From assembly GCA_963847705.1 (NCBI GenBank), contig CAWKBC010000041.1, forward strand, positions 16,418-80,417: a DNA stretch of 64,000 nt, in the 5' to 3' direction. Shown piece by piece: positions 20,129 through 55,181 of this stretch. Numbering within the stretch: position 1 is the first letter of the stretch; the number at the start of each line of letters is the position of its first letter. The notes under the pieces were generated by a model. It was not told the origin of the DNA and did not search any database. It saw nothing but the letters and a program-made list of their open reading frames with translations. Origin of the DNA: an uncultured Pseudomonadota bacterium. GTDB lineage: Bacteria > Myxococcota_A > Polyangia > Fen-1088. The position numbers and the translations under genes were made by a program.

Positions 20129-20256
20129 CTAGACTAGAGGCGCCTCAGGAGTTTCCGAAGGCGACCTGGATGCCGGAGGGCGCGACGCGCCCGGGTCCAA
20201 GCACCGGGAGGCTCGGCTTTGCCGAGCCGGCATCGACGGCCCGCGGGGGAGCTCGT

Positions 20257-20366
20257 GAGGGGGGACACCCCCTCACGGCGCCGAAGGCGCGCGGAGGGGG
20301 GACACCCCCTCACGGCGCCGAAGGCGCGCGGAGGGGGGACACCCCCTCACGGCGCCGAAGGCGCGC
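20257..20366. repeat. Three tandem copies of a 37-bp palindromic unit GAGGGGGGACACCCCCTCACGGCGCCGAAGGCGCGCG
   Basis: Copies start at 20257, 20294 and 20331; each has two hairpins; no unique spacers; lies between convergent genes. Confidence 0.9.
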
Positions 20367-21842
20367 TTAAAACCCGTAGGCGATGCCGACGTTGATGTCG
20401 AGGTTGAAGGTGAAGTCCCAGAAGCCGAGCGCCGCGTTCGCCTGACCGACCAGCGAAAGGTTGTCGGTGAGATCGTAGAAGACGCCGCCGCCCGGACCGA
20501 CCAGGATGGGCCCCCCCTGGATGGTGTCGACGCAGGACTGGTTCATCATCGGCCCGCAGCCGGTGGGGGCGCGGGAGGGGTGCAGCGTCACCACGTGTCG
20601 GATGTAGCCGCCGCCGCCCATCAGCGAAAAGAATGGGTGAAAGCTCCCCTCGTCGCCCCCCAGCTTCCAGGTCGCCTTGGCAAACGCCGCGAAGGCGTAG
20701 TGCGCCGTCCTGTAGTCCACCCCGTTGAAGTACGGATCGACGGTGCCGGTGATGATCTGGTAGCGCAGCTGGAGTGACAGCATCAGCGACGAGGTCAGCC
20801 AGTAGCCGACCTCGGGCGCGATCTGCAGCAGCGACGCGGGGGCGACGCCCGGCGGCGAGATGCTCACGTCGTGGTTGGTGTCGCCCGCCCCGGTGGCCCA
20901 TCCGAACCCGCTCCCCAACATGAAGGCCACGAAGTACTTGTGGTCAGGCTCGTCGTCCTCTTCCTCTTCGCCTTCCCCTTCGGGCTTGTGCACGGCGGCC
21001 TTGGCCCCGCCGAGGTTGATGACCAGCGGGCTGTCGACCGTCCCCTTGGTCGCCACCGCGTTGCCGTCCGCGTCATCGGCCTCTACGTAGTAGGCCACCG
21101 TTGCGCCCAGCGTGGCCGTGGTGGGGATCTCGGCGCCATAACGCCCCTCGGCAACCGCTTTCATCTCGCGCCCCAGGAACTCGGTGGCGCCCTCCGGGCG
21201 GTAGGCGAGGACCATCTTGTCGAACTTCAGGTCGGCCTGGACGGCGACGGTGACCGAGATGGCGCTCCCCTTCTTTCCGTCGGTGATCGGCTGGTGGACG
21301 ATCCCGGACGGCTCTTCGCTTTGCTCGGGAGGCGGGGTGGCGGCCGGCGGCGCCGCTGGCTCGGGCGCCGCCTCCGGGGGCTCGGGGCTCGCGGGCGGCG
21401 GCGCGCTGGGGGACGCCGGGGGGGCGGCGGTCGCGCCGCTCTTGGCCTCGTTGAAGGCGTCGGTCAGCTCAGGCGTGACCAGCGCCTTCGTGAGGTTGAT
21501 CGTCGCCTGGATCTCCAGCGCCTTTCTGAACTGTTTGATGCCGAGATCGCGCTGCTTGAACCCGGTGATGATCACGATCCCCATGTGGATGTGGGTGCGC
21601 GCCGTGATGGGGTGCTGCTGGAGCCCCGTCGAGTCCGCCAGGTCGAGCGCCTGCTTGAGGATCTTGCGGGCATCGTCGAACTTCTGAGCCTGCAGCGCCG
21701 CCACGGCGTCCTTGTTCATCTGGGTGATCTTCGCGATCGTCTCGTCCTGCGACTCGGCGCGGGCCAGTGACGACAGCGACAGAACGACGAGCAGCGCGCA
21801 GAGCCCGCGCAACAGTGAAGACGCGGGCGGCCACGTGGTCAT
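20367..21842 (-). CDS. Exported protein: TPR-like helical N-terminus, Pro-rich linker, Ig-like domain, C-terminal beta-barrel-like region
   Basis: Start refined to MTTWPP (signal peptide ending ARA-E); amphipathic strands; terminal VGIAYGF. Confidence 0.75.
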   Translation of the reverse strand: MTTWPPASSLLRGLCALLVVLSLSSLARAESQDETIAKITQMNKDAVAALQAQKFDDARKILKQALDLADSTGLQQHPITARTHIHMGIVIITGFKQRDLGIKQFRKALEIQATINLTKALVTPELTDAFNEAKSGATAAPPASPSAPPPASPEPPEAAPEPAAPPAATPPPEQSEEPSGIVHQPITDGKKGSAISVTVAVQADLKFDKMVLAYRPEGATEFLGREMKAVAEGRYGAEIPTTATLGATVAYYVEADDADGNAVATKGTVDSPLVINLGGAKAAVHKPEGEGEEEEDDEPDHKYFVAFMLGSGFGWATGAGDTNHDVSISPPGVAPASLLQIAPEVGYWLTSSLMLSLQLRYQIITGTVDPYFNGVDYRTAHYAFAAFAKATWKLGGDEGSFHPFFSLMGGGGYIRHVVTLHPSRAPTGCGPMMNQSCVDTIQGGPILVGPGGGVFYDLTDNLSLVGQANAALGFWDFTFNLDINVGIAYGF

Positions 21843-22138
21843 GCGGTGCTTGCCTCTGGGGGAAAAAGGAAGGCTCAAGCTGAGCTCCCTTTGTAACACG
21901 AAATTCCACAATCCTTCTAGCGCTTGACCGGTCGGAAACCGGGTCCGCGCCGGCCGGAGGCGGCACCGGCCGGTCGGCCTAACCTCCGGCCAAGGCTCAG
22001 GGAAATACCGCAACGAGGGGTCGCGGCATGGGGGGGACCTCCTATTTATCCCCCCAACCTCTTGCGCCCATCCGGGGGGTGCTTAATTGCCATATTTGCT
22101 GCCCGAATGCTGTTTCCTGGAAACCGGAGGTGACCACC

Positions 22139-22378
22139 ATGCTGCTCGATCCCAATGACCTGCTCACGCCGAGCGACGCAGCCCGCGTCCTCGGCCTTTC
22201 TGCGGACTCCGTCCGCGTTCTGTCCGACAACGGCCGGCTGCCGGGGATGAGGACCGTCGGAGGACGGCGCCTCTTCCGACGCGCCGACGTTGACCGGCTG
22301 GCCATAGAGCGTGCGGGCCATGTGGCGCACGCGCTCAGCGCGCGGCAGCAGCCCATGGCGCCCCGCGCGGAGGAATGA
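22139..22378 (+). CDS. Small MerR/excisionase-like (BldC-like) helix-turn-helix protein
   Basis: LLTPSDAARVLGLS...V...GRL...RT.GG.R.F.R.DV; GGAGG RBS upstream. Confidence 0.85.
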   Translation: MLLDPNDLLTPSDAARVLGLSADSVRVLSDNGRLPGMRTVGGRRLFRRADVDRLAIERAGHVAHALSARQQPMAPRAEE

Positions 22379-23646
22379 CCAACCAGCTGGAGGGTCGGTC
22401 GATGCGACCGAGCCGCGACCGCGACCGCCGTTTGCTCGATACCATGCCCCAGTGCATCTGGGCGGCGGACGCGGAGGGGCGGGTCAACTACTGGAACCGC
22501 GCCGGGCTGGAGTATTGCGGCCTGGACGCGGCCAGTCTGACCGACAGCTCGTTCTGGGAGATGCTCCACGTGGACGATCGCGACGAGGCGCGCGTCCACT
22601 GGGAGCGTGGCCTGCGGGGCGAGCCGCCTTTCCAACGCCAGGTGAGGCTGAGACGCGCCAGCGATGGCCTCTTTCGCTGGCATCTGGTCCGCGCCGTCGC
22701 CGAGCGCGACGAGGCGGGCACGGTGGTGGGCTGGATCGCCACCGCCACCGACATCGACGACCAAAAGAAGGCCGAGGACCTCCTGCGGGAGGCGGTGATC
22801 CTGCGCGACGACTTCCTGTCGGTCGCCTCGCACGAGCTGCGCACGCCGCTGACCGCGCTCAAGCTGGAGGTTTCGAACCTGCTTCGATTGGCGCGCCTCG
22901 ACGCCGGGTCGGAGCGGGCGCGCCTGATTGCCAAGGTCGAGAAGATCGACGCGCAGACGGCGCGCCTGCGTGGCCTCATCGACGACCTGCTCGACGTCTC
23001 CAGTCTGGCGGCCGGACAGCTCGAGCTGCAGCTCGGTCAGGTCGATCTGGCCGAGGTCGCAGGCGAGGTCGGCGCGCGGTTCATCGACGAAGCGGCGCGT
23101 CTCGGCAGCCGGCTGACCATCGACGCCCGGGACCAGGCGATCGGATGTTGGGATCGCGAGCGGCTCGAGCAGATCGTGTCGAACCTGATCTCGAACGCGG
23201 TCAAGTACGGGGACGGCAAGCCGATCGATGTCGCCGTCCGGGCGGAGGGGAGGCAGGCGCGGCTGATCGTCCGCGATCAGGGGCTCGGCATCGCCCCCCG
23301 CGATCAGGAGCGGATCTTCGGCCGATTCGAGCGCGCGTCCAACAGCGTGAACTTCGGGGGGATTGGCCTGGGGTTGTGGATCGTCAAGCAGATCGTCAAC
23401 GTGTTCGGCGGCGCCGTCGGCGTGGAGAGCAGCCCCGGGGCCGGCTCGATCTTCACCGTCGAGCTCCCCTATGCCGCCCTCGCTCAACGAATCGCGTGGA
23501 GGGCCAAGCCCCAGGAGCCAGCCATCACCGCCAAGGCGGCGGCTCCCAGCAGCAGCTGCACGGTCGTGCGCGGCGCCCGGATGTTGCCGAGCGCCGCGAC
23601 CGAGCCGATGGCCGCGCCCAGCCCCAGCCCGAAGAGATGGGCGTAG
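22375..23646 (+). CDS. PAS-domain sensor histidine kinase
   Basis: PAS/PAC; SHELRTPL H-box; NLISNAVKY, DQGLGI, GIGLGL. The 3' tail overlaps the convergent rhomboid gene. Confidence 0.92.
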   Translation: MTNQLEGRSMRPSRDRDRRLLDTMPQCIWAADAEGRVNYWNRAGLEYCGLDAASLTDSSFWEMLHVDDRDEARVHWERGLRGEPPFQRQVRLRRASDGLFRWHLVRAVAERDEAGTVVGWIATATDIDDQKKAEDLLREAVILRDDFLSVASHELRTPLTALKLEVSNLLRLARLDAGSERARLIAKVEKIDAQTARLRGLIDDLLDVSSLAAGQLELQLGQVDLAEVAGEVGARFIDEAARLGSRLTIDARDQAIGCWDRERLEQIVSNLISNAVKYGDGKPIDVAVRAEGRQARLIVRDQGLGIAPRDQERIFGRFERASNSVNFGGIGLGLWIVKQIVNVFGGAVGVESSPGAGSIFTVELPYAALAQRIAWRAKPQEPAITAKAAAPSSSCTVVRGARMLPSAATEPMAAPSPSPKRWA

Positions 23647-24369
23647 GTGTCGGCGCCCGGGCCGACGCCCAGCATGGCGTAGAGCCCCAGGCCCGCGCCG
23701 AGGGGCACCCAGGCGTACTTCCGCCGCGCCCCGCCGCGCAGCCGCCGGACCACCTGCAGCCCCGCGCAGAGGCCCAGCGCCGCGAAGGTCGCCGTGGAGG
23801 CCCCGACCGAGACGAACGCGGTCTGGTGCACCGCCGCGGTGAGGAGGTTCGCCGTCCCGGCAACGGTGAGAATCACCAGCGCCCCCAGGCCACCGCCCAG
23901 CCAGCGTCCAACCGCCGCCACGAAGATCAGCGCGGCGACGACGTTCCCCGCCAGGTGGAGCAGATCGGCGTGCAGCGTGAGCGCGGTCAGCGCCCGCCAC
24001 CACTGGCCGGAGGCGATCCGCTCGGCGGAGGCGGCCCCCGCCTGGAACCAGCGCGAGCCAGCCCCCGGCTCTGCCCAGGGCCCCGCGACCCAGAACATCG
24101 CGCAGAGCCCGAGCGCGGAGAGAATCCCCAGCGCGCTCGGCCCGGTGTCGGGCGCCGGGGGATTCCGGCTTGACCGGACCTTCGGCGTCGAACCCGCCGA
24201 GGGCCGTCTCGGCGGCGAGCGCGTCGGCGGGGTCGACCGCCAGCACGAACCGCCCCTCGCGCTCGTCGAGCTGGTAGGCGATCCCGGCGGCCGCCAGCAC
24301 CAGCGCCCAGTCACCCGCCTGGGTCGGGTTGGCGGTCGCCCGCACCAGGGCTTCGGGAGCGTCACTCAT
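23484..24369 (-). CDS. Rhomboid family intramembrane serine protease, frameshifted near 24160-24180
   Basis: N-terminal soluble domain MSDAPEALVR... in one frame; WWR.LTALTLHAD..HL.GN, GAST and AHLFG in another. Confidence 0.85.
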
Positions 24370-24374
24370 CGTCC

Positions 24375-24433
24375 CGAGCCTGCCGAGCCTGCCGAGCACG
24401 CCGAGCACGCCGAGCCCGCCGAGCCTGAGCCTG
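24375..24433. repeat. 9-bp tandem microsatellite (CGAGCMYGC), about 6 copies
   Basis: cgagcctgc cgagcctgc cgagcacgc cgagcacgc cgagcccgc cgagcctga. Confidence 0.75.
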
Positions 24434-24509
24434 TACGCCGTCTTGACGGTCGAACCACCGGTGATAGCTTGATCGATCTTCGTCGCGGGTGCGACGCCGA
24501 GGTGCTCCG

Positions 24510-25202: not shown

Positions 25203-25211
25203 AACCGTCTC

Positions 25212-26609: not shown

Positions 26610-27921
26610 CCTGGTGAGCGCGCGCCGCCGCGGCGACGAGCTGCGCCTGGCGCCGACCGACGATGCCCGGCGGGAGCGGATCGCCACGCTGGCGGCGGCG
26701 CTGACCGCGCGGGCGCGCCAGGAGGTCGGCAACCTGCGCGACGACGTCGAGGAGGCGCTGCGCCAGACCGCCACGGCGCTGGAAGACGGCGGCGATCGCC
26801 GGTTGGGCGCGGCGGTTGGCAAGCTGGTGCGCGACGGGCTCCGCTTCGAGGAGACCTCCGGCCAGACCGCGACCGAGCTGCGGCGTGAGCTGTTCACGCA
26901 GGCGGCGGCTGCGCGCCGAGGCGCCGGCCCGGCCCCCTTCGATCGCGCGGCGTTCCTGGAGAGCTTCGCGCGCGCACGAGGGACGACCGCGCGGGCGCTG
27001 GAGGCGGCGCTCTACGCCGATCGCCCTGGCGCCCAGCGCCTCCTGGCGGTCGAGGTGCCGGCGCCCGCGCTGGTGGCGGCCGGGTTCGGGATCTCCGAGG
27101 CGCAAGCCGTCCTGCTGAGGGCAACCAAGATCGTCGCCGAGATCGAGGCCGGCGACGCCGCGCTCTACCGCCGCCTCTTCCGCACGCTGAAGTTCCTGCG
27201 CCTCCTGCCGGTCATCACCCGTCTCGATCAAGCGCGGGACCCCTGGGAGGGTTCCCGCTCCCCCCCGCGACAGACTTCGCCCGGCAAAGCCGGACTCCGT
27301 CCACGCCAACAACGTGGCGGCTACCGGGTCGAGATGGACGGCCCGCTCAGCCTGTTTCAAGGCGGCGGTCGCTACGGGCTCTCGCTGGCGCTGGCCCTGC
27401 CGGCGATCGCCGCCTGCGATCGCTGGAGGCTGGACGCCGACGTTCGCTGGGGCGCGGAGCGCCGCCCGCTGCGCTTTCGACTGGCGGGCGAGGAGCCCAG
27501 CGTCGCGCTCGCGACGGCGGGCGACCCGGCGCGGGGCGACGCGCTTCCCGATGAGCTCGCGGCCTTCATCACCGCCTTCGCGCGCGTGACGACCGACTGG
27601 AAGATCGATCGCGCGCCCGCCATCCTCGATCTCCCGGGGGCGGGGCTCTGCGTCCCCGATCTCTGCTTCGTGCGAACCGCCGACGGCGCGCGCGTTCACT
27701 TCGAGCTGCTCGGCTTCTGGAGCCGCGAGGCGGTGTTCCGGCGGATCGACCTGGTGCGGGCCGGCCTGCCGCAGAGGATCCTCTTCGCCGCCAGCAAGAG
27801 CCTGCGCGTCGGCGAGGCGCTCCTCGACGACGCGCAGACCGCGGCGCTCTACGTTTTCTCCCGGGTGCTCAACGTCCGCACCATCCTCGATCACCTGCAG
27901 CGGATTGCGCCGGCACTTTAG
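26596..27921 (+). CDS. DUF790 family protein (Bax1-like nuclease partner of XPB)
   Basis: GTG start VLTADLV overlaps the helicase stop; ALYAD, AQAVLLRA, DGPLSLF...RYG, and PDL.F...ELLGFW nuclease-like motif. Confidence 0.88.
   Translation: MLTADLVSARRRGDELRLAPTDDARRERIATLAAALTARARQEVGNLRDDVEEALRQTATALEDGGDRRLGAAVGKLVRDGLRFEETSGQTATELRRELFTQAAAARRGAGPAPFDRAAFLESFARARGTTARALEAALYADRPGAQRLLAVEVPAPALVAAGFGISEAQAVLLRATKIVAEIEAGDAALYRRLFRTLKFLRLLPVITRLDQARDPWEGSRSPPRQTSPGKAGLRPRQQRGGYRVEMDGPLSLFQGGGRYGLSLALALPAIAACDRWRLDADVRWGAERRPLRFRLAGEEPSVALATAGDPARGDALPDELAAFITAFARVTTDWKIDRAPAILDLPGAGLCVPDLCFVRTADGARVHFELLGFWSREAVFRRIDLVRAGLPQRILFAASKSLRVGEALLDDAQTAALYVFSRVLNVRTILDHLQRIAPAL
27236..27306 (+). 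repeat. Two-hairpin palindromic element, in frame inside the DUF790 gene
   Basis: GGGACCCCT-GGG-AGGGTTCCC, CCCCCCGCG, CCGGC-AAA-GCCGG, CTCCGTCCACGC; closely matches 50890-50963. Confidence 0.8.
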
Positions 27922-27938
27922 ACGAGCCCAGAGCGGGC

Positions 27939-29852: not shown

Positions 29853-29873
29853 GGCTCCGCCCTTCGTCGTTTC

Positions 29874-33322: not shown

Positions 33323-33356
33323 GGCCCCTCGACGCGCCCGCGAGGCTTCGGCGGAT

Positions 33357-34910: not shown

Positions 34911-34923
34911 CGCGCCGACGATA

Positions 34924-43156: not shown

Positions 43157-43994
43157 CGTGCCCACCGTCGCCGCCCTCCCCCGTCCGTACGGCCCGGTCG
43201 CGCTGCTGCGCCGTTACGCCGGGCTGTTTCGCGTGCAGCTGGCGATCTCCGCGCTCACCGCGATGCAATACCGCACCGACTTCCTGGTGCGCGGCCTCAT
43301 CGCGATCCTCTGGATGGCGGTGACCCTGGCGCCGCTCCTGGTCGTCTTCGGCGTGCGCAAGACCGTCGCCGGCTGGTCGTTCCCCGAATCGCTGGTGGTG
43401 GTCGGCTGGTTCACGCTGCTGCACGCGGTGCTGGAAGGGGCCGTCAGCCCCAGCCTCACGGCCGTGGTCGAGCACGTCCGCCACGGCACGCTCGACTTCG
43501 TCCTGCTCAAGCCGGCCGATGCGCAGTTCCTGGTCTCGACCGCCAAGATCGAACCGTGGCACGTGGTCGACGTGTTCGGCGCGGTGGTCATCTTCTGCTA
43601 CGCCTTCAGCAAGCTCGGCCGCTGGCCACGCACGCTGGAGGTGGGCGCCGGGCTCGCCTTCCTGGCGCTGGCGGTGGTCATCCTCTATTCCTTCTGGATC
43701 CTGGTGGTGAGCGCGTCGTTCTGGGTGGTGAAGGTCGACAACCTCTCCTACCTGTTCGGATCGCTGTTCGACGCCGCCCGCTGGCCCATCACCGTCTTCC
43801 GGGGCGCCCTGCGGATCGTCTTCACCTTCGTCTTCCCGATCGCGCTTCTGACCACCTACCCGGCGATGGCGCTCCTGGGCGAGCTCGACGGCAAGACGGG
43901 TCTGGCGGCCCTGGCGGGCGGCCTCGCCTTCGCGGCCATCGCGCGCCGCGTGTGGCGCCGCGCGCTCGCCATGTACACCTCGGCCAGCTCCTGA
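43149..43994 (+). CDS. ABC-2 family (DUF990-type) permease
   Basis: QYRTDF, GTLDFVLLKP, RWPITVF, terminal YTSASS. Confidence 0.92.
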   Translation: MDDVPTVAALPRPYGPVALLRRYAGLFRVQLAISALTAMQYRTDFLVRGLIAILWMAVTLAPLLVVFGVRKTVAGWSFPESLVVVGWFTLLHAVLEGAVSPSLTAVVEHVRHGTLDFVLLKPADAQFLVSTAKIEPWHVVDVFGAVVIFCYAFSKLGRWPRTLEVGAGLAFLALAVVILYSFWILVVSASFWVVKVDNLSYLFGSLFDAARWPITVFRGALRIVFTFVFPIALLTTYPAMALLGELDGKTGLAALAGGLAFAAIARRVWRRALAMYTSASS

Positions 43995-43999
43995 TCGCC

Positions 44000-44091
44000 T
44001 GGACGGAGCCGAGCTTTGCCCGGCGCGGGTCCGCCCGCGGGGGGCAGCGTGAGTCCTTCGTGGGGGGTGGGGGGACCCTCTCAGGGTCCCA
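44000..44091 (-). repeat. Intergenic copy of the two-hairpin palindromic element
   Basis: Plus strand TGGACGGAG...GCTTTGC...CGCGGGGGG...GGGACCCT-CTC-AGGGTCCC is the reverse complement of the 27236 and 50890 copies. Confidence 0.75.
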
Positions 44092-44094
44092 CGT

Positions 44095-44514: not shown

Positions 44515-44600
44515 GCTCCCGTCCCCTTCTCCACGAAACGTAACCGCGCTCTCGACGGCAACAAGCCACTTCGTTAACGTGGGTGCCGATAACGGCCCCC

Positions 44601-46547
44601 ATGGAGATCGAGAGCGAAGCTGGTCCGTCCGAGGCGACAACCGTCCGCGAAATCGACGCCGCGGCACGCGCGCTGGCGGAGCGGTGGCGCGCCGGCGACC
44701 AGGACGATCTCGCGTTGCGGGCGGCCTGTGGCGGCGCGCTGAGCGATCTGCGCGGCGCGTACCGGCGGCGTCCCGAGGCGTTCAGCCCGGCCACGGTCAG
44801 CCTGCTGAAGGAGGTCGGCCGCGCCTTGTCGGCCCCGCAAGCGAGCCCGAGAGAGCCAGGTAAAGGACCCTGGAAGGGTCTTTTAGATCCCCCGCGGGCG
44901 AGCGTCGCCGGGCAGAGCCCGTCGACGCTCACGCGACTCCCCAGAAGGGTCCCCGCACCGGCATCCGGACCCCCGCCCCTGGAGGTCCTGCGCGACGTCT
45001 TCGGCTACCGATCCTTCCGGGCCGGTCAGCTGGAGATCATCGAGACGCTGCTCGCTGGACGGGACTGCGTGGGGGTGATGCCGACCGGCGCGGGGAAGTC
45101 GCTCACCTACCAGATCCCGGCGCGGGTCCTGGGCGGGATCACGCTGGTGGTCTCGCCCCTCATCGCGCTCATGAAGGACCAGGTCGATGCGATGACGGAG
45201 GTCGGGTTGCGCGCGACCTACCTCTCGGCGTCACTGCCACCCGAGGAGCGCCAGCGGCGGGTCCGGGCGCTCTCCGCGGGAGAGTACGAGCTCTGTTACG
45301 CGGCCCCCGAGGGAATTGAAGCCTCCGTGGGGCGCGTCCTCGGAGGCCTCGACCTCCGTCTCATCGCCGTCGACGAGGCGCATTGCATCAGCCAGTGGGG
45401 GCATGACTTCCGGCCGGCTTACCGGAACCTCACCGGCCTCAAGCGCAAGTTCGGCGGCGTGCCGATGCTGGCGCTGACCGCCACCGCCACCCCCGCCGTC
45501 ACCGCCGACATCATCGGGCAGCTGGCGATGATCGATCCGGCCTGCTTCCGCGGGCGCTTCTTCCGCCCGAACCTGCACATCTCGATGTACCGGAAGGGCG
45601 AGCACGACGGGACTGCCAGCGCCGGGACGAAGGGTGTCCGCTCGGCCATCACCAACCTGATTCACGCCCGGCGGGGGCAGAGCGGGATCGTCTACGCGCT
45701 CTCCCGCAAGGCCTGTGAGTCGCTGGCCGAGCACCTGCGCGACAGCGGCATCGCGGCGGCGGCCTACCACGCCGGGCTGGACCCGTCCGAGCGCACCCGG
45801 GTCCAGGATGCCTTCTCGCGCGACGAGGTCGACGTGGTGGTGGCGACGGTGGCGTTCGGGATGGGGATCGACAAATCGAACGTCCGCTACGTGATCCACC
45901 GGGACATGCCGCGCTCGATGGAGGCCTACTATCAGGAGATCGGCCGCGCCGGCCGCGACGGGATGCCGAGCGACTGCATCCTGTTTTATTCCTGGGCCGA
46001 CGTGATGGCCTTCGATCGCTTCGGTGAGCGACCCGGCGACGACGTGGATCCGGCCGCCCTCGCCCGCCAGCGCGATCAGATCCGCGAGATGTTCGCCTTC
46101 GCCTCGGCGCGCGACTGCCGCCACCGGCTGGTGGTCCGCCACCTCGGGGAGCAGATGGAGCGCTGTGGCGAGTCGTGCGACAGCTGCGCCGGCCTCGATC
46201 CGCTGGCGGCCGCGCGGACCGCCCGGCGGACGCCCCGGCGTCCGGTGGCGAGCCCCACCGACCGGCCGGCGCGCGCGCCCGAGGAGCTGACGGTGGAGAC
46301 CGCCGAGCTCTTCGATCGGCTCAAGACCCTGCGGCGATCTCTGGCGGTCGCACGCAGCGTTCCGGCCTACGTCGTCTTCAGCGACGCGACGCTGATGCGG
46401 ATCGCCGAGGAACGGCCGAGCTCGCCTGACGCGCTGCTCGGGATCTCCGGCATCGGACCGAAGAAGCTCGAGCTGTACGGCGACGCCTTGCTAGAGCTGG
46501 TGGGCCAAGGCCCCACTTCACCGAGCGCCGGCGATGGCCAGGTTTGA
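44601..46547 (+). CDS. recQ: RecQ family ATP-dependent DNA helicase with HRDC domain
   Basis: FGY.SFR.GQ, MPTGAGKS, DEAHCISQWGHDFRP, QEIGRAGRDG, Zn-site Cys residues, VPAYVVFSDATL. Confidence 0.94.
   Translation: MEIESEAGPSEATTVREIDAAARALAERWRAGDQDDLALRAACGGALSDLRGAYRRRPEAFSPATVSLLKEVGRALSAPQASPREPGKGPWKGLLDPPRASVAGQSPSTLTRLPRRVPAPASGPPPLEVLRDVFGYRSFRAGQLEIIETLLAGRDCVGVMPTGAGKSLTYQIPARVLGGITLVVSPLIALMKDQVDAMTEVGLRATYLSASLPPEERQRRVRALSAGEYELCYAAPEGIEASVGRVLGGLDLRLIAVDEAHCISQWGHDFRPAYRNLTGLKRKFGGVPMLALTATATPAVTADIIGQLAMIDPACFRGRFFRPNLHISMYRKGEHDGTASAGTKGVRSAITNLIHARRGQSGIVYALSRKACESLAEHLRDSGIAAAAYHAGLDPSERTRVQDAFSRDEVDVVVATVAFGMGIDKSNVRYVIHRDMPRSMEAYYQEIGRAGRDGMPSDCILFYSWADVMAFDRFGERPGDDVDPAALARQRDQIREMFAFASARDCRHRLVVRHLGEQMERCGESCDSCAGLDPLAAARTARRTPRRPVASPTDRPARAPEELTVETAELFDRLKTLRRSLAVARSVPAYVVFSDATLMRIAEERPSSPDALLGISGIGPKKLELYGDALLELVGQGPTSPSAGDGQV
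44861..44933 (+). repeat. Two-hairpin palindromic element, in frame in the recQ N-terminal linker
   Basis: TAAAGGACCCT-GGA-AGGGTCTTTTA, CCCCCGCG, GAGCGTCGCCGGGC-AGA-GCCCGTCGACGCTC. Confidence 0.65.
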
Positions 46548-46609
46548 TCCGGGTCGGGATGAGAGCCGAGGTGGGGGCCGGGAGGCGGGCGGGAGGCGGG
46601 GAAGACGCG

Positions 46610-47062
46610 ATGGGAGTGGAAGCAAGCATTCGGACGCTGATCGCGTTCCTGCACGACGAGCTGGCGACGGTGGCCAGCTACCGGCGCGCGCTGCCGGGGT
46701 TTGCGGAGGCGCCCGATGGTGAGGAGCTGCGCGCCTGCCTCGCCTCGCACGAGCGGCGGATCGCCACCCTGGAACAGCGAATTCGTTTTCTGGGCGGCGA
46801 TCCGAACGAGCGAGAAAAGGAACAAGACGGCGAACGAAACGACGCCGCCCCGCTGACGGCCCCCGCGCCTGGCCCGGGCGACGCGGCGGACGCTGCGATC
46901 ACGGCGCTGGAGGCGAGCGAGGATCGCGGTCTCAAGCACTACCTCGACGACGTTTGCAAGCTGGATCGGGACACGCGCAGCTTGGTGGCGCGCGAGATCC
47001 TCCCCGAGCAGGTGCGCACCTACGACTCGCTGACCGACCTGAAGCTGACCAGACGTTTGTAA
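46610..47062 (+). CDS. Ferritin-like (DUF2383-type) protein
   Basis: DEL..V.SY..AL, SHERR...L...I..LGG.P, LEASED.GL..Y. Confidence 0.8.
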   Translation: MGVEASIRTLIAFLHDELATVASYRRALPGFAEAPDGEELRACLASHERRIATLEQRIRFLGGDPNEREKEQDGERNDAAPLTAPAPGPGDAADAAITALEASEDRGLKHYLDDVCKLDRDTRSLVAREILPEQVRTYDSLTDLKLTRRL

Positions 47063-47182
47063 TCGGGACCCTAAAAGGGTCCCGCGATGTGACGCCGGCG
47101 GGGGCGATCCGCGCCGGAGGCAATCGACGGCTGCCGTTGCTTCGCTCACGCTCGGAGCTCCGCGGTCGGGGTATGCTGCGGC

Positions 47183-48688: not shown

Positions 48689-49410
48689 TGTGGTGCCGCC
48701 GGATCGCCGCCGCCGTGGTCCTCGCCAGCGCGCTGGCGGCCGGCCCGGCCTCCGCCTGGGCCGCCGATCCCGCCCCTCTCCGGGTGGTCGGCTTCGCCAC
48801 CAAGAACGGTCGCCTCACCGTGTCGGTCGGGCTGCAGGATCTGTTCGGCGAGGCCGAGCGAGAGCGCTTGAAGTCGGGGTTCGCCACCCGCGTCCTGGTC
48901 CGCGCCGCGCTCGAGGAGGCCGCCACCGGCGAGCCCGTCGCCGTCGCCGTGCAGCGGGCCGAGATCGTGTACGACATCTGGGATGAGAAGTTCGGCGTGC
49001 GCACCTCCGACGGTCTGGGCGTCGAGCGGCGCGCCGTCTCCCCCACGGCCGACGAGGCGATCTGGCGCGCCGCCGTCCTGTTCGAGGTCCCGATGGTCGA
49101 CATGGCCCGTCTGCGCCCCGGCGCCGAGTACGTGCTGGCCGTGCGCGGCGATCTCAACCCGATCTCCGAGGACCTGCTGATCGAGGTGCGCCGCTGGCTG
49201 GTTCAGCCGGCGCGCGGGCAGCGCCGCCTCGGGGCCGGTGACAGCTTCTTCGGTTCGTTCGTCAGCATCTTCGTCAACCCGCGCATCGAAGACAGCGAGC
49301 GCCAGGTTCGTTTCGTCTCGCAGCCGTTCGTGCTGGGCGCCGCGGCACCATCGCCCTCGCCATCGCCCTCATCGCCGCAGCCGAGGCCGCAACCAGGGAG
49401 GTTACGCTGA
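48688..49410 (+). CDS. DUF4390-like exported protein
   Basis: Signal peptide; L.SG; YDIWDE.F; lies between Omp85 and an NtrY-like kinase. Confidence 0.75.
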   Translation: MWCRRIAAAVVLASALAAGPASAWAADPAPLRVVGFATKNGRLTVSVGLQDLFGEAERERLKSGFATRVLVRAALEEAATGEPVAVAVQRAEIVYDIWDEKFGVRTSDGLGVERRAVSPTADEAIWRAAVLFEVPMVDMARLRPGAEYVLAVRGDLNPISEDLLIEVRRWLVQPARGQRRLGAGDSFFGSFVSIFVNPRIEDSERQVRFVSQPFVLGAAAPSPSPSPSSPQPRPQPGRLR

Positions 49411-50945
49411 TGAAGCTGTTGCGTCTGCCCGGGCGCTTCGAATGGAAGATCCTGCTCGCCCTCTTCACCGTCGCCTCGCTGCCGCTGGGCGCGACGGCCT
49501 ACCTCATGTCGGTGACGATCGGCCGCGTCGAGGCGATCACCGACCAACACCAGGAGGCGGTCCGCCAGTCGCTGGGGGGCGCGGTCGAAGTCTACAAGGC
49601 CTACTTCGAGAAGATGAAGGACAGCTTCCACGCGCGGGCGGCGGAGATCGCCGCCGGCCCGGTCGACCATGCGGCCGATCTGGCCGACGTGTCCGATCTC
49701 CTGCACGCCCGGATTCTCTCGGGCGCGCGCGTCGTCGACGAGTGGTCGGCGCCGCCCGCGGTGATCGCCGACGCGCGCGAGGCGCCGCCCAACCTGGTCG
49801 CGCTGCCCGTGACCGGCGGCGAGCCGCGCGGCGAGCCACGCATCTTGGAGCTGACCTTCGGGATCCCGCGCGAGATCTACGCCAACTTCCTGGCGCTGCG
49901 GGCGGCGATGGAGGAGGAGCACGAGCTCGATCGCCTGCTGCCGGTGGTGTTGCCGCGCATCTTCCACGGCCTGGGCGTGGCGCTGGTGGTGGTGCTCTTG
50001 ATCGCGGCGGCGCTGGGCCTCTTCATTGCACGGCGCGCCACCGGCCGGGTCGCCGCGCTCAGTGACGCCGCCCGCCGCGTCGGCGAGGGGGATCTCACCG
50101 TGCGGGTGGCGCCGCGCGGCTCCGACGAGCTCGACGATCTCGGGCGCGCCTTCGATCGCATGGTCGCCGAGCTGTCGGAGGCGCGGTCGCGCCTCGGCTA
50201 CATGCAGAAGCTGGCCGCCTGGCAGGAGGTGGCCCGGCGGCTGGCCCACGAGATCAAGAACCCGCTGACGCCGATCCAGCTGGCCGTGCAGGAGCTGGCC
50301 TCGAAGTACCGCGGCGGCGATCCCGGGTACGAGAAGCTGCTCGGCACCGCGCAGGAGATCCTCACCGAGGAGGTGGGCGCCATCCGCCGTCTGGTCGACG
50401 ATTTTTCGGCGTTCGCCAAGCTCCCCAAGGTCGAGCCGGCCCCGGTCGACCTCGGCCAGGTGGTCGACGACTTCTCCCGCGCGCACCCCGAGTGGCAGAA
50501 GGCGTTGCAGGTCGAGCGGCGCGGCCCGGTCGGTGCGCTCTGCGACCGGATGTTGATCCGACGCGTGCTGGCCAACCTGGTGGAGAACGCCGTCCAGGCC
50601 GCCGAGGCGGTCGGGCGCGAGCCGGCGGTGAGGATCGCTCTTGCAGAAGGGGACAGCGCGGCCTCGCTCTTCGTGGACCTCTTCGTGGACGACAACGGCC
50701 CCGGCGTGGCGGGCGACGCGCGCGAGCGGATCTTCGACCCCTACATGACCACCAAGGAGCACGGCACCGGGCTGGGGCTGGCCATCGTCCGCAAGATCAT
50801 GCTCGACCACGGCGGCGACGTGCGGGTCGCGGAGACGCCGTCTCCGCTGGGCGGCGCGCGCTTCGTCGTCACCCTCCCCGTCGTTCATTCCAGGGGACCT
50901 TCAGAGGTTCCCCTGGCCCCCCCGCGACGGACTTCGGTCGGCTGA
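49410..50945 (+). CDS. HAMP-domain NtrY-like sensor histidine kinase
   Basis: Two TM segments, HAMP, AWQEVARRLAHEIKNPLTPIQL, DNGPG, GTGLGL. Confidence 0.94.
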   Translation: MKLLRLPGRFEWKILLALFTVASLPLGATAYLMSVTIGRVEAITDQHQEAVRQSLGGAVEVYKAYFEKMKDSFHARAAEIAAGPVDHAADLADVSDLLHARILSGARVVDEWSAPPAVIADAREAPPNLVALPVTGGEPRGEPRILELTFGIPREIYANFLALRAAMEEEHELDRLLPVVLPRIFHGLGVALVVVLLIAAALGLFIARRATGRVAALSDAARRVGEGDLTVRVAPRGSDELDDLGRAFDRMVAELSEARSRLGYMQKLAAWQEVARRLAHEIKNPLTPIQLAVQELASKYRGGDPGYEKLLGTAQEILTEEVGAIRRLVDDFSAFAKLPKVEPAPVDLGQVVDDFSRAHPEWQKALQVERRGPVGALCDRMLIRRVLANLVENAVQAAEAVGREPAVRIALAEGDSAASLFVDLFVDDNGPGVAGDARERIFDPYMTTKEHGTGLGLAIVRKIMLDHGGDVRVAETPSPLGGARFVVTLPVVHSRGPSEVPLAPPRRTSVG

Positions 50946-50963
50946 GCCGAGCTCCGTCCACGC
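50890..50963 (+). repeat. Two-hairpin palindromic element forming the overlapping 3' ends of two convergent genes
   Basis: CCAGGGGACCT-TCAG-AGGTTCCCCTGG, CCCCCCGCGACGGACTTCG, TCGGC-TGA-GCCGA, CTCCGTCCACGC. Confidence 0.8.
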
Positions 50964-51452
50964 GCCACGCGACGGGATCTCCACCGTCTGCCCCGCCACG
51001 CGCAAGGCCGGGCGTCCGCCGGGCAGCTCCATGAAGAGCTCGCCGAGCGCCGCGATGGTCGACGTCGCGAGCCGTGCTTCCAGCCGGCCGCCGCGGACCC
51101 AGGCCCGCAGGATACCCGCGCCGTCCACGGTGAGCGTCCTGGGATCGAGCGCCTCTTCCGCACCGTCGGAGAGCGCCAGCCAGATCGTCCCCGCGGGACC
51201 GATCCGCGCCGCATGCGCGACCAGCGGCGTGTCGTCGACGTCGAGGTAGGCGAAGCGTCGCTCGTCGAGCCGCAGCACGTAGCGGTCATCAGGGGGCGGC
51301 AGCCGATCGAGCCAGCGAAACAGCGCCTGCCGGAGCCCCGCGTGGGTGACCTCCGCCCCTTCGTGAATGAACCGCCCCTCGCGATCGACGCGGATACCGG
51401 ACTGCCGCAGCCGCTCGATGAAGGCGGCGTGCTCGGCCGACTCGGTCACCAC
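50901..51452 (-). CDS. DUF1285-like protein
   Basis: IRVDREGRF.HEG, V.DTP; typical spacing. Confidence 0.72.
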   Translation of the reverse strand: MVTESAEHAAFIERLRQSGIRVDREGRFIHEGAEVTHAGLRQALFRWLDRLPPPDDRYVLRLDERRFAYLDVDDTPLVAHAARIGPAGTIWLALSDGAEEALDPRTLTVDGAGILRAWVRGGRLEARLATSTIAALGELFMELPGGRPALRVAGQTVEIPSRGAWTELGSADRSPSRGGQGNL

Positions 51453-51471
51453 GCCCCCACGCGGGGTTGAC

Positions 51472-51681
51472 CTAGGGAGCGCGGACGGCGCCCAGGCGTT
51501 GCAGCTCGTCCTTCGTGCGCAGCTTTTCTTTCTTCAACCGGCTGCGCTCGACCTGTTCGTCCGGCGTGAGCGACAGGTGCCGCTCCAGCTGTGCGAGCCT
51601 TCGCTCCAGCTCGCCGTGACGTTCCTTCAACCTCACCATCTGCACCGCCGCCGACCCCGTGTCCACGCGGATCTTCTCCAT
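51472..51681 (-). CDS. DUF465/YdcH family small coiled-coil protein
   Basis: L.ERH.EL...L...LKKEKL..KDEL; GGAGG RBS. Confidence 0.85.
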   Translation of the reverse strand: MEKIRVDTGSAAVQMVRLKERHGELERRLAQLERHLSLTPDEQVERSRLKKEKLRTKDELQRLGAVRAP

Positions 51682-51754
51682 GCGTCGAACCTCCGTCGTC
51701 CTCGATGATAGCGCTCCGGATGGCGGCGGATCAATCTCGGGAAAACACTTAAAC

Positions 51755-52330
51755 TCAGCCGCGGCGTGCCTCGAAGGCGGTGATGGCTGCCTCGTGCGAA
51801 AGCAAGAACTCCAGCTCATCCACGCCGTTCAGCAGGCAATAGCGGGCGAAAGGGTCGATGGGGAATGACGCACGAGATCCGTCGGGCAGCGTCAAGGTCC
51901 GGTCCTCGACCGAGATCGTCAGGCTGGCGCCCGGTGCCGCCAGAAGCTTGGCGTGGGCCCCCTTGTCGACGACGATCGGCACCAGGCCGTTCTTCAAGGA
52001 ATTGTTTCGAAAGATGTCGGCAATCGACGTACTGACCACCGCGCGAAACCCGTAGTCGACCAGCGCCCAGGGGGCGTGCTCGCGCGACGAGCCACAACCG
52101 AAGTTGTCGCCCGCCACCAGGATCGCCGCGCCGGCCGACTCCGGGCGGTTGAGCACGAAGTCGCCCTTGGGCTTCCCCTCGGCGTCGAACCGCCAGTCGG
52201 CGAACAGCTTGGACCCCAGGCCCGCCTTGCTGGTCGCCTTGAGGAAGCGCGCCGGGATGATCTGATCGGTGTCGACGTTCTCCACCGGGAGAACCACGGT
52301 CCGCGACGTAAATGTCTTGAGAGGTTCCAC
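51755..52330 (-). CDS. leuD: 3-isopropylmalate dehydratase small subunit
   Basis: [28 protein letters not shown]. Confidence 0.96.
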
Positions 52331-52442
52331 TTCAAATCCTTTCTGCGATAGCCAGGTGAGCGCAGCGCGGCTTCGCCACGCGGAGCGAAGGGGGCAAATG
52401 TGGATTGGAGGTGCCGCGAGCCACAGCGAGCCGGCCCCCCAC

Positions 52443-53840
52443 CTAAATCAATTCCCGGGCGTCGGTGACGCGGCCGGTGACGGCGGCGGCAGCGGCGGTG
52501 AGGGGGCTGGCCAGGAAGGTGCGACCGCCTGCCCCCTGGCGCCCTTCGAAGTTGCGGTTGCTGGTGCTGACCGCGTACTGGCCCGGCTTGAGCTGATCGC
52601 CGTTCATGGCGATGCACATCGAGCAGCCGGCCTCGCGCCACTCGGCGCCGGCGTCGAGAAACACGCGATCGAGCCCCTCCGCCTCGGCCGCCTTCTTGAT
52701 GGCCTGCGAGCCCGGCACCACCAGCGTGCGCACGCCCGGGGCCACCTTGCGGCCCTTGAAGATGGTCGCCGCCGCGCGCAGGTCCGACAGCCGCGAGTTG
52801 GTGCAGCTGCCGATGAACACCACGTCGACCTTGTGCCCGAGCAGCTGCTTGTCGTCGGTGAGCCCCATGTAGGCGAGCGCCTTGGTGTCGCTGGCGCCCA
52901 ACGAGGCCGGGATATCACCGCCGATCGGGATCCCCATGCCGGGGTTCGTCCCGTAGGTGATCATCGGCTCCAGCTTGGCGGCGTCGAACTTCTCTTCGCG
53001 GTCGTAGCTGGCGCCCGGGTCCGACGGCAACTGCCGCCAGGCCGCCACGGCCTTGTCCCAGGCCGCGCCCTTGGGGGCGCGCGGGCGGTCCTTCAGGTAG
53101 GCGAAGGTCGTCTCGTCGGGCGCGATCATCCCGGCGCGGGCGCCGGCCTCGATCGACATGTTGCAGACGGTCATCCGCTCCTCCATCGAGAGGGCGCGGA
53201 TCGCCGAGCCGCGGTACTCGATGACGTGTCCGGTCCCGCCGCCGATGCCCAGCCGCGCGATCACCGCCAGCACCAGGTCCTTGGCGGTCACGCCCGGGCG
53301 CAGGGTTCCCTCGATGGTCACCGCCAGCGTCCTGGGCGGCTGCTGCAGGAGACTCTGGGTGGCGAGGACGTGCGACACCTCGCTGGTCCCGATCCCGAAC
53401 GCCAGCGCGCCGAACGCGCCGTGCGTGCTGGTGTGGCTGTCGCCGCAGACGATCACCTCGCCCGGCTGGGTGACCCCCAGCTCGGGGCCGATGACGTGCA
53501 CGATCCCCTGCCCGTCGCTGCCGAGCGCGTGCAGCTCGATCCCGAAGTCGGCGCAGTTCTTCTCCAGCGCCGCGATCTGCATGGCCGCCGCGTTGTCGAG
53601 GATGGGGATCTTTCCATCGCGGCCGCGCGGCGTGGTCGGCGTCGAGTGATCCATGGTGGCGACCGTCTGCGAAGGCCGCCGCACCTTGAGGCCGCGTTCG
53701 CGCAGCCAGGTGAAGGCCTGCGGCGAGGTCACTTCGTGGACCAGGTGCAGGTCGACGTAGAGAATGGCCGGCGTGTCGGCGTCGGCGGGGCGCACCAGGT
53801 GCGCCTCCCAGATCTTCTCGAACATCGTGCGGGGATTCAT
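52443..53840 (-). CDS. leuC: 3-isopropylmalate dehydratase large subunit
   Basis: [43 protein letters not shown]. Confidence 0.97.
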
Positions 53841-53897
53841 GCCCCCACCTTGGCCCCGGAAGCCCCGTTCCGTCCAGTGACAACGGCCGGCCCGATC

Positions 53898-53914
53898 GTT
53901 AAGTTATACTTAAC
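53898..53914. promoter_or_regulatory. Palindromic T-N11-A LysR-type operator between leuC and lysR
   Basis: GTTAAGT-TAT-ACTTAAC perfect inverted repeat. Confidence 0.7.
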
Positions 53915-53932
53915 CGTCGAGACGCCTCAGCG

Positions 53933-54838
53933 ATGGACCCCTCCCTCATCCCCGCCTTTCACGACGCCCTGGTGGTTGCCCAGACGGGGTCCGTCGGGGA
54001 GGCCGCGCGCCGCCTGCACAAAACCGCCTCGGCCGTGTCGCAGCAGATCCGCCGGATCGAGGCCCGGTTCGGGGTCGCTCTGTTCGAGAAGGTCGGGCGC
54101 GGGATCCGGCCGAGCGCGGCGGGCGAGGCGCTCCTGGGGAGCCTGACGCGCCTCTTCGACGAGGCGGCCTCGCTGGAGGCGCAGCTCGGCGAGCTGACCG
54201 CCGCGCGGGTCACCACCTTGCGGATCGCCGCCAGCGACTACCTGGGCGAGGCGATCTTGCTGCCGGTCCTGCGGCGTCTGTTCGACGAGGCGGCGCCGTT
54301 GCGCTTCGAGATCACCACCACCAATTCGATCGAGGCGGGGCGGCTGGCGGCGGCCGGGCAGGTCGACGTCGCCGTCGTCAGCGCCGATCGCGCGCTGACG
54401 GCCGACGAGACGCAGCTCTGCACCCAGCGGTTCTTCTGGGTGGCGCCGCCGCCGAGCTCGAAGCGCGCCGCCGCCGAGCCGCTGCGAAGCCGCCTCTCCC
54501 GCGCGCCGCTGCTGCGGCTGCGCGCCGGAAGCCAGGGGCGGCGCGTGCTCGACGAGTGCCTGGGACGCCTCCGGCTGCGGCCGCTGTCGACGATCGATCT
54601 CCCCAGCGTGTCGCTGCTGCTCTCCTACGTGCGACAGGGGCTGGGGATGGGCCTGGTCCCCGGGCTGGCGCTCCGACCCGACGATCGGCGGCACCTGGCG
54701 GTCGAGCCGGCCGACGTCCCGCCCATCGACGTCCGCCTGGCCTGCCGCCCGACCCTCAAACGCACCAAACCGGTGGGCCGCTTTCTCGACGGCCTCGTGG
54801 ACGAGACCCGGCGGGCGGCCGCCCAGAGCGGCGCCTGA
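53933..54838 (+). CDS. LysR family transcriptional regulator
   Basis: GSV.EAA..LH.T.SAVSQQI..IE...G..LF; about 300 aa; divergent from leuCD. Confidence 0.93.
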   Translation: MDPSLIPAFHDALVVAQTGSVGEAARRLHKTASAVSQQIRRIEARFGVALFEKVGRGIRPSAAGEALLGSLTRLFDEAASLEAQLGELTAARVTTLRIAASDYLGEAILLPVLRRLFDEAAPLRFEITTTNSIEAGRLAAAGQVDVAVVSADRALTADETQLCTQRFFWVAPPPSSKRAAAEPLRSRLSRAPLLRLRAGSQGRRVLDECLGRLRLRPLSTIDLPSVSLLLSYVRQGLGMGLVPGLALRPDDRRHLAVEPADVPPIDVRLACRPTLKRTKPVGRFLDGLVDETRRAAAQSGA

Positions 54839-55115
54839 TCCTCTGTTCGAAAATCGGATAGGGCCGTTCGAATCGCGGTGACAGACGGCAGCCTTCCGAT
54901 CGTCGCCGACCTGTGACGACCGCTGAGGCGCCACGCAGGTAATGCAAAGGGCGCTGCGTGCGCCGGCGACGGTCGCCGACCCGCGCGACAGCTCAACCAG
55001 GGAGCGAGTCATGAGCGCCGAGCGCCTCTACATCCTCTACACCAACGGCGGCCTGGCCGCCGTCCGGGCCGAGCTCCGCCAAGCCGCGCGCCCGGGGATC
55101 GTCTAAAGCATCGCG

Positions 55116-55181
55116 TCGAGCGCAGCGCGGCTTCGCCGCGCGGAGCTCATCGCGGGGGGCGCGGGACCCCTGGGGGTCCCG
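55116..55181 (-). repeat. Intergenic copy of the two-hairpin palindromic element
   Basis: Minus strand GGGACCCC-CA-GGGGTCCC, CCCCCCGCG, GCGCGGC-GAA-GCCGCGC; 28 of 29 nt identical to 52358-52386. Confidence 0.72.

What the first reader, a model, noticed from the sequence alone, without database searches (positions are those of the whole stretch)
20207..55181. Dispersed ~70-bp two-hairpin palindromic element family that also sits in frame inside proteins
Seen: six near-complete copies share the layout GGGACC-loop-GGTCCC-type hairpin, then CCCCCGCG, then a stem closed by GC-NNA-GC, often followed by CTCCGTCCA. They are at 20207-20276 (-), 27236-27306 (+), 44000-44091 (-), 44861-44933 (+), 50890-50963 (+) and 55116-55181 (-). 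Partial copies lie at 47064-47084 and 52358-52386. Stem sequences differ between copies while pairing is kept. Three copies are translated, all in the same orientation and frame: DPWEGSRSPPRQTSPG (DUF790), GPWKGLLDPPRASVAG (RecQ) and GPSEVPLAPPRRTSVG (kinase). Known: REP elements are mobilised by RAYT HUH nucleases, Rickettsia RPEs insert in frame into genes, and GC-GAA-GC is an exceptionally stable DNA mini-hairpin. Inference: an undescribed REP/RPE-like non-autonomous element that adds peptide segments to proteins. No candidate mobiliser gene is in the window.
Basis: partly seen in the sequence, partly recalled or inferred. Interest (0 to 1): 0.8.

Follow-up and report, generated by a model that had tools for sequence, protein, structure and literature searches.

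The report
Triplex-hairpin mobile repeat in myxobacteria
An uncultured group of myxobacteria carries about 200 copies per genome of a ~77-base two-hairpin DNA repeat that differs in presence between close relatives, sits mostly just after stop codons and sometimes in frame inside housekeeping proteins, is predicted from its co-varying bases to fold a short triple helix, and is likely copied by an enzyme that we could not identify.

Summary
The repeat is real: 216 copies in this genome (controls 2, E≥0.35), present in 24/24 genus relatives, absent from 120 other phylum genomes searched. Both hairpins covary. Orthologous sites are often empty, including DUF790, RecQ, the kinase, RecR and RsmI. 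A relative carries an opposite-orientation copy in the same BirA loop. Corrections: the 20207 and 52358 'copies' belong to sister families, and in-frame copies use all frames genome-wide, not one. New: the C-tract is a mirror image of hairpin 1's 3' arm, covaries with it (206/219) and changes length with it. This predicts a 3–4-triad intrastrand triplex, BoxC/PIT-like but shorter and of opposite class. The ~12 bases 5' of hairpin 1 are target DNA shifted toward A/T (102 vs 36 changes). No REP tag, no inverted dimers, no flanked RAYT; DUF559 genes are flanked by a different repeat; the mobiliser is unidentified. Earlier scan notes describe triplex-type in-frame repeats in other phyla; this family was not among them. 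Verdict: new variant of a known kind.

The parts
27233..27309 (+). Family A copy, in frame in a variable loop of the DUF790 gene (26614-27921)
   Evidence: CM 70.4 bits. Of 23 ortholog loci, 20 lack it, 1 has a partial remnant (G001) and 2 carry their own copy (G041; G004 in another frame)
44860..44937 (+). Family A copy (A/T-arm subfamily), in frame in the variable N-terminal linker of RecQ (44601-46547)
   Evidence: CM 61.7 bits. No profile hit at this linker in 23 ortholog loci from 22 genomes, one of which does not reach it. G017 has a separate in-frame copy near residue 340
50890..50966 (+). Family A copy that supplies the stop codon and new C-terminus of the histidine kinase (49410-50945) and, likely, of the convergent ORF 50901-51452(-)
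   Evidence: CM 72.6 bits; empty in 7 of 7 relatives aligned; both reading frames
55110..55184 (-). Family A copy, 2 nt after the TAG stop of the hybrid kinase gene 55184-56914(-)
   Evidence: CM 72.9 bits; fold z -4.3; distance to stop
43993..44092 (-). Family A copy with an extra ~25-nt internal segment, 4 nt after the TGA stop of the DoxX gene
   Evidence: CM in two pieces. Site empty in G001, G017, G021 and G002, decayed remnant in G003
47061..47095 (+). Truncated family A copy (hairpin 1 and decayed tail) directly after a TAA stop
   Evidence: CM 28.7 bits; no family A copy at this site in 6 relatives
20207..20367 (-). Sister family C: three tandem 37-bp hairpin units, a C-tract and a GC-AAA-GC hairpin; not family A
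   Evidence: (D20); two more loci on contig C27. Relatives G014, G017 and G021 carry family A copies at this same site
52358..52430 (-).
   Evidence: Present in G003 and G020, absent in G001, G021, G017, G014 and G002

Best explanation
This is a ~77-nt non-coding repeat with about 200 copies per genome whose presence differs between close relatives; it is likely a non-autonomous mobile element, predicted to be recognised as folded single-stranded DNA (hairpin 1 with a short mirror-tract triplex, plus a GC-NRA-GC hairpin) and likely inserted by a nicking enzyme acting in trans that is not a classical REP-flanked RAYT. Shown: copy number, covariation, presence/absence between relatives, repeated insertion into the same protein loops, inserts of 75-81 nt, head-to-tail arrays, A/T-shifted 5' flank. 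Inferred: (1) insertion adds the element plus a few duplicated target bases; (2) arrays arise by slippage or unequal exchange between those short repeats; (3) copies survive just after stop codons or in frame in tolerant loops because other insertions are purged, helped by a preference for A/T-rich TA- or ATC-containing targets, so the peptides are a by-product; (4) the G-rich strand folds a 3-4-triad purine-motif (class I) triplex; (5) the enzyme is a small nuclease of the kind that flanks BoxC-type repeats in this genus, but not those DUF559 genes themselves. Step 5 is the weakest.
For: Mobility: of 46 G001/G021 loci, 23 are empty in G000, 13 filled and 10 not alignable. Clean coding insertions: RecR 81 nt (5/5 empty), RsmI 81 nt (5/5 empty), prolyl oligopeptidase 75-78 nt (4/5 empty), BirA (3/4 empty, G003 holds a copy in the opposite orientation). 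Structure: 94.7% of cells paired vs 84.6% shuffled, 191 vs 72 double changes, 0/500 shuffles. Triplex: pairs 26/36 and 12/36 rank 4th and 8th of all column pairs. Positions 26 and 36 agree in 206/219 copies vs a stratified-permutation mean of 181, max 196 of 5000. Arm and tract change length together (spacer 12 or 14 nt in 223 of 238 copies, 13 nt in 13). When position 9 is A the mirror position changes (A-T-A in 15 copies) while the alternative-duplex partner stays C (19 copies). The A/T-arm subfamily keeps the mirror. Sister family D has 8 mirror triads with T/A exchange, which the purine motif allows (triad rules in PMC4666352). Position: 52 of 62 sense copies near a stop begin -2..+8 nt from it; stops are TAG/TAA in 40/52 vs 41% genome-wide. 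In 91 copies not next to a stop, YTA occurs in 25 (background 6%) and NATC in 34 (12%). Short direct repeats: shared flank words of >=6 nt in 10/102 singles vs 2.2 expected; 17 of 27 filled/empty pairs show extra bases, mode 12 nt beyond the 69-nt core. All 35 arrays are head-to-tail. Precedent: DUF559 genes of this genus are flanked on both sides by BoxC-type repeats in 7 of 14 loci printed.
Against: No mobiliser was found: no recurrent nuclease among 424 ORFs next to copies in 313 loci; no nuclease or transposase family among 147 of 246 short adjacent ORFs scanned. DUF559 is not detected in G000 and only 1 of 22 DUF559 loci has a copy nearby. Target duplication is not uniform: 10 of 27 pairs show missing bases, range -30 to +27. 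Some 'empty' sites hold remnants, so part of the polymorphism is loss. Three to four triads is below the 6-15 used in PMC4666352 and may not be stable alone. The 12/26/36 covariation alone also fits an alternative duplex, and G-C-T (12) outnumbers A-T-C (1). Copies from relatives were gathered with a pattern that fixes hairpin 1. G000 is 85% complete.
Confidence: 0.5

Rival explanations
1. The element is moved by the multi-copy HUH/Y1 transposase (TnpA-Y1) family of this genus, REP/IS605-style: excision and insertion of a single-stranded circle at a GATC-like motif, with arrays formed by re-insertion behind the element's own GATC end.
For: G000 has three such genes that PF01797 missed; 15/24 genus genomes have them, up to 43 copies. 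The element ends in GATC in 43/102 singles, and RsmI, oligopeptidase and DUF790 targets contain (C)GATC. A decayed copy lies just upstream of the C2 TnpA gene (by eye). GNA-type loops suit ssDNA recognition (established knowledge).
Against: These TnpA genes have their own inverted ends. Only 1 partial hit in 30 TnpA loci (100,381 bases) and one hairpin-1-only site plus one weak hit in 30 PF01797 loci. 9/24 genus genomes with the repeat show no such gene, while 5 class relatives without the repeat pattern have it. No replication-strand bias (44 vs 36, p=0.43). IS200/IS605-type insertion makes no target duplication (recalled).
Confidence: 0.25
2. No dedicated enzyme: the structure stalls replication, and template switching or gene conversion between copies spreads, perfects and deletes them.
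For: The outer base pairs of hairpin 1 vary with the flank yet stay complementary. Flanks are unstable, as reported for E. coli triplex motifs, where no mobility genes were found nearby (PMC4666352, Discussion). No mobiliser was found.
Against: Full-length 75-81-nt inserts appear de novo in coding DNA with little homology to the element; five or more unrelated repeat families coexist with distinct ends.
Confidence: 0.15
3. It is a host-maintained RNA element (terminator or 3' stabiliser) whose pairing is conserved for RNA function.
For: Strong stem covariation; position just after stop codons.
Against: Between co-directional genes it lies sense 40 vs antisense 32, and 16 loci are divergent; no U-tract in the consensus; rapid gain and loss; in-frame copies on both strands; no Rfam match.
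Confidence: 0.1

Closest known systems
Intrastrand-triplex repeats: E. coli BoxC / PIT / TM_ECO (Holder et al. 2015, PMC4666352; passages and Discussion part 1 read)
   Same: G/C-rich hairpin plus mirror third segment, dispersed between genes, unstable flanks, no mobility gene beside it
   Different: Only 3-4 predicted triads (paper: 6-15); class I rather than class II order; fused to a second GC-NRA-GC hairpin with an internal loop; ~200 copies; in frame in genes. A true BoxC-type repeat exists separately in this genus around DUF559 genes
Rickettsia palindromic elements (RPE; as summarised in PMC10969869, passages read; the original PMC186582 was not held)
   Same: Palindromic repeat inserted in frame into unrelated housekeeping genes
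   Different: About half the length; no single conserved peptide (all frames, both strands); mostly intergenic; no CGTC tag
Multicopy sequences of Geobacter bemidjiensis / G. metallireducens (PMC2996986, PMC2700814; passages read; 12 of 15 G. bemidjiensis supplements searched)
   Same: [quoted passage not shown]
   Different: No matching consensus in the files searched (files 13-15 unseen); those papers give no triplex or mechanism in the passages read
REP / BIME / REPIN with TnpA_REP (RAYT) (PMC3733652, PMC8266576, bioRxiv 10.1101/279083; passages read)
   Same: High-copy hairpin repeats near gene ends, bulged stems, clusters, occasional in-frame copies
   Different: No GTAG/CGTC foot, no inverted doublets, no REPtron; twice the length; short direct repeats in some flanks

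Membership tests
REP/REPIN-RAYT | GTAG or CGTC tetranucleotide at the hairpin foot | tested here: not met
   Consensus and flank composition
REP/REPIN-RAYT | Inverted doublets (BIME/REPIN) | tested here: not met
   35 of 35 arrays are head-to-tail
REP/REPIN-RAYT | TnpA_REP gene flanked by the repeat | tested here: not met
   1 partial hit in 30 TnpA-Y1 loci; no full copy in 30 PF01797 loci; genomes are incomplete
REP/REPIN-RAYT | Cleavage of the single-stranded repeat by a Y1 HUH enzyme | not testable with these tools
   Needs an in vitro assay
BoxC/PIT intrastrand-triplex repeats | Hairpin plus mirror-image third segment obeying triad rules | tested here: met
BoxC/PIT intrastrand-triplex repeats | Stem of at least 6 triads | tested here: not met
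   3-4 triads in family A; sister family D has 8
BoxC/PIT intrastrand-triplex repeats | Class II segment order on the G-rich strand | tested here: not met
   The third segment is 5' on the G-rich strand, class I by the definitions in PMC4666352
BoxC/PIT intrastrand-triplex repeats | Triplex formation in vitro | not testable with these tools
   Needs CD, NMR or DMS
RPE-type coding palindromes | In-frame insertion in conserved genes with empty orthologs | tested here: met
RPE-type coding palindromes | One conserved peptide (one frame) | tested here: not met
   4/4/4 same-strand frames plus 5 opposite-strand internal copies
MITE | Terminal inverted repeats | tested here: not met
   The two ends belong to separate hairpins and do not pair with each other
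MITE | Fixed-length target-site duplication | tested here: inconclusive
   Excess of short direct repeats but a wide spread of overlaps

The most novel reading that the evidence does not exclude
A superfamily of composite triplex-plus-hairpin elements in Polyangia, moved by an undescribed enzyme that reads a DNA triple-helix motif, and leaving a ~12-base zone of C-to-T/G-to-A hypermutation in the host DNA at its 5' foot. Each insertion would then both add a 25-27-residue loop or new C-terminus and rewrite neighbouring codons. The three-way covariation would be comparative evidence that intrastrand DNA base triples are under selection in bacteria.
Probability: 0.25. Interest if true: 0.8.

Novelty: new variant of a known kind. 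Interest (0 to 1): 0.55.

Why it matters
How BoxC/PIT-type triplex repeats and RPE-type coding palindromes spread, and whether their triplex matters in vivo, is unresolved (PMC4666352 found no in vivo triplex and no mobility gene). This family has hundreds of divergent copies in each of 25 genomes with clean filled/empty pairs. It gives covariation evidence for base triples, defined insertion junctions, and repeated independent hits in the same protein loops. The A/T-shifted flank is a testable footprint of the mechanism. Limits: in-frame palindromes are long known, the hosts are uncultured, and the enzyme is unknown.

Tried and rejected
Rfam: no match in the window. Viral contigs: 0 pattern matches. 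PF01797 in G000: none; a profile from relatives then found three TnpA-Y1 genes, rejected as cognate because they have their own ends and are not flanked. The apparent IS200 TnpA hit on C30 matched the non-transposase tail of the query. DUF559 (lead from earlier notes): flanked by a different repeat. GIY-YIG: three genes in G000, one merely holds an internal copy. Genes flanked on both sides are housekeeping. Replication-strand bias (lead from earlier notes): not seen, 44 vs 36 with 61 ambiguous. A single reading frame: rejected. HIP1/SDR-type targeting was considered; the search returned no paper with 'small dispersed repeats', so it rests on recall and was dropped. Searches had faulty anchoring and were replaced; the output was partly cut and three sites were redone. 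Literature searches that found no description of this family: (listings only). No structure prediction was run, so 'surface loop' is inferred from indel-rich ortholog alignments and from the split match to solved RecR and BirA.
Full report
Observation. The eight stretches are in the window as described. A profile iterated from six of them finds 216 copies in the 6.1-Mb, 85%-complete genome at E<=0.01 (199 at 1e-5), against 2 hits each (best E 0.35) in reversed and codon-shuffled controls. They form 158 loci: 123 single copies and 35 arrays of 2-4, all head-to-tail, with periods mostly 78-83 nt. A covariance model from 71 copies scores four window copies at 62-73 bits, the 44000 copy in two pieces, and 47061 at 28.7. 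The 20207 and 52358 stretches score only 14-18 bits and belong to sister families. Rfam has no match.

Distribution. A strict pattern matches 24 of 24 genus relatives (6-188 matches each) and 1 of 16 other class genomes, with 0 for the reversed control. The model finds nothing in 120 other phylum genomes (strict filters), and the pattern finds nothing in viral contigs.

Anatomy. Hairpin 1 (GGRACCCT arm, 3-nt loop) is followed by a 3-nt loop and a CCYCCC tract. Then comes hairpin 2, with an internal loop and a GC-NRA-GC cap, and often GATC. On 71 copies from many genomes, 94.7% of cells pair (shuffles 84.6%) and 191 cells show double changes (shuffles 72; 0/500 reach it), mostly in hairpin 2, which the collecting pattern did not constrain. 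Relatedness inflates such counts.

Predicted triplex. In 167 distinct G000 copies, unpaired position 36 covaries with both partners of pair 12-26 (ranks 4 and 8 of all column pairs). Positions 26 and 36 agree in 206 of 219 copies. After stratifying by the loops that lie between the tested positions, permutations give a mean of 181 and a maximum of 196 in 5000, and both states occur in 18 of 99 strata. The 3' arm and the tract are mirror images around a 3-nt loop and change length together: the spacer is 12 or 14 nt in 223 of 238 copies and 13 nt in only 13. An alternative duplex would also explain position 36. But when position 9 is A, the mirror position changes (15 copies) while the alternative partner stays C (19 copies), and the A/T-arm subfamily, which includes the RecQ copy, keeps the mirror. 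On the G-rich strand this gives G·GC, A·AT and T·AT triads, class I in the scheme of PMC4666352 (passages). Sister family D has eight such triads with a T/A exchange. The triplex is inferred and short (3-4 triads), below that paper's 6-15.

Mobility. Of 46 distinct loci from the two closest genomes, 23 are empty in G000, 13 are filled and 10 could not be aligned. Some empties keep remnants or hold a sister family. In the window, the kinase site is empty in 7 of 7 relatives. The DUF790 loop is empty in 20 of 23 orthologs, partial in one and filled in two, one of them in another frame. The RecQ linker copy is absent from all ortholog loci that reach it, while G017 has its own in-frame copy elsewhere in RecQ. 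Elsewhere, RecR and RsmI carry exact 81-nt inserts (5 of 5 relatives empty). The prolyl oligopeptidase insert is shared with G001 only. BirA carries an opposite-orientation copy in G003, which shows independent insertion into the same loop. The inserts split the matches to solved RecR and BirA.

Coding copies. By my own codon-model gene calls (approximate), 33 gene overlaps of at least 25 nt exist among 216 copies, 17 of them internal. The internal ones are split 4/4/4 over the same-strand frames, plus 5 on the opposite strand. The shared frame of the three window copies is therefore not a family property. Most frames of the element are open (102-141 of 151 full copies), so in-frame survival needs only a length divisible by three and a tolerant site. 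The same all-frame behaviour was noted for a Geobacter family (PMC2996986, passage).

Target and junctions. Of 62 sense copies within 40 nt of a stop, 52 start -2 to +8 nt from it, and 40 of those stops are TAG or TAA against 41% genome-wide. The 91 first copies not next to a stop also have A/T-rich 5' flanks (YTA 25/91 vs 6%; NATC 34/91 vs 12%). Between co-directional genes the orientation is 40 sense to 32 antisense, and there is no replication-strand bias. Flanks share words of 6 nt or more in 10 of 102 singles against 2.2 expected. In 17 of 27 filled/empty pairs there are extra bases, mode 12 beyond the 69-nt core, i.e. about 5 beyond the element's own foot and tail; 10 pairs instead lack bases. 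A short duplication is likely but not fixed.

A/T-shifted flank. In 33 filled/empty pairs the last 14 nt before hairpin 1 still align to the empty site (identity 0.77, 0.52, 0.44 approaching the foot). Changes favour A/T in the filled allele 102 to 36, against 21 to 32 further upstream. In 28 pairs at gene ends (not all independent), synonymous changes in the last three codons go to A/T 20 to 7 in 84 codons, against 34 to 38 in 483 control codons. Either the element raises local C-to-T/G-to-A mutation, or it selects A/T-rich alleles as targets; these data do not separate the two.

Mobiliser. PF01797 finds nothing in G000. A profile from relatives finds three near-identical TnpA-Y1 genes with their own inverted ends. 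This family is in 15 of 24 genus genomes and 6 of 16 others; its 30 fetched loci hold one partial hit, although a decayed copy is visible by eye beside the C2 gene. DUF559 is in 15 of 26 genus genomes but not G000. It is flanked on both sides by a separate BoxC-type repeat in 7 of 14 loci printed, with a family A copy near 1 of 22 loci. Among 424 ORFs beside copies in 313 loci no nuclease recurs, and Pfam names none in 147 of 246 short ones. The enzyme is unidentified.

Comparison and verdict. It works like RPE and the Geobacter intragenic repeats in entering genes in frame, and like BoxC/PIT in its mirror third segment, but it fails defining tests of REP, MITE, RPE and BoxC proper. Eight literature searches (listings only) found no description of it; subscription papers and three Geobacter supplements were not seen. 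A sequence look-up of earlier scan notes found nothing. A word look-up found eight triplex-type in-frame repeats in other lineages, read after my triplex analysis; they are unchecked leads, two of which I tested (DUF559, strand bias) and did not find for this family. Verdict: a real, active, undescribed family; new variant of a known kind; interest 0.55.

Noticed in passing
G000 genome-wide; e.g. C27:664980-665693, C47 next to 44521: Family E: about 57 intergenic copies of another ~77-nt multi-hairpin repeat, often with TAG/CTAG at its ends; it occupies a site that holds family A in G001.
   Followed up: no
G000 C3:4660, C8:46163, C14:131731, C17:77516, C32:445566 and 537930, C33:726, C34:238224: Family D (~15 copies, ~110 nt): hairpin plus 8-triad mirror tract, then a GC-NRA-GC hairpin, right after the stops of rpoA, rpoD, glnA and lon; best candidate for a stable class I triplex.
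   Followed up: partly
L256-L258 (G000 C2:31455-32150, C47:43826-44521, C29:169511-170206): Multi-copy TnpA-Y1 (HUH) element with its own inverted ends, missed by PF01797; up to 43 copies in G020 and 20 in G017, so it behaves like an IS rather than a single-copy RAYT.
   Followed up: partly
L406-L414, L421: DUF559 genes of this genus are flanked by inverted BoxC-type (class II) triplex repeats; isolated copies of that repeat occur in G000 (C21:336014, C30 near 407300), where no DUF559 was detected.
   Followed up: partly
G000 C21:2389-3223, C14:55213-55651, C7:77853-78244, C8:36727-36969, C27:441060-441710: About 21 intergenic regions with a longer (~170 nt) palindromic family that has a conserved central core.
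   Followed up: no
window 50901-51452 (-): Convergent ORF without a Pfam hit whose last ~20 residues come from the same element copy that ends the kinase.
   Followed up: partly
window 44034-44060; also G000 C47:46437, C48:1801, L315: A recurrent extra internal segment in hairpin 2 defines a longer subfamily.
   Followed up: no
L245 (G000 C36:3100-5500): About 1.8 kb between two copies holds apparently frameshifted genes (response-regulator-like), with no gene called; possibly assembly error.
   Followed up: no
G000 C34:25037-32034, C1:177147-178077: Seven intergenic regions share a structured motif that resembles a cyclic-di-GMP riboswitch (resemblance recalled, not tested).
   Followed up: no
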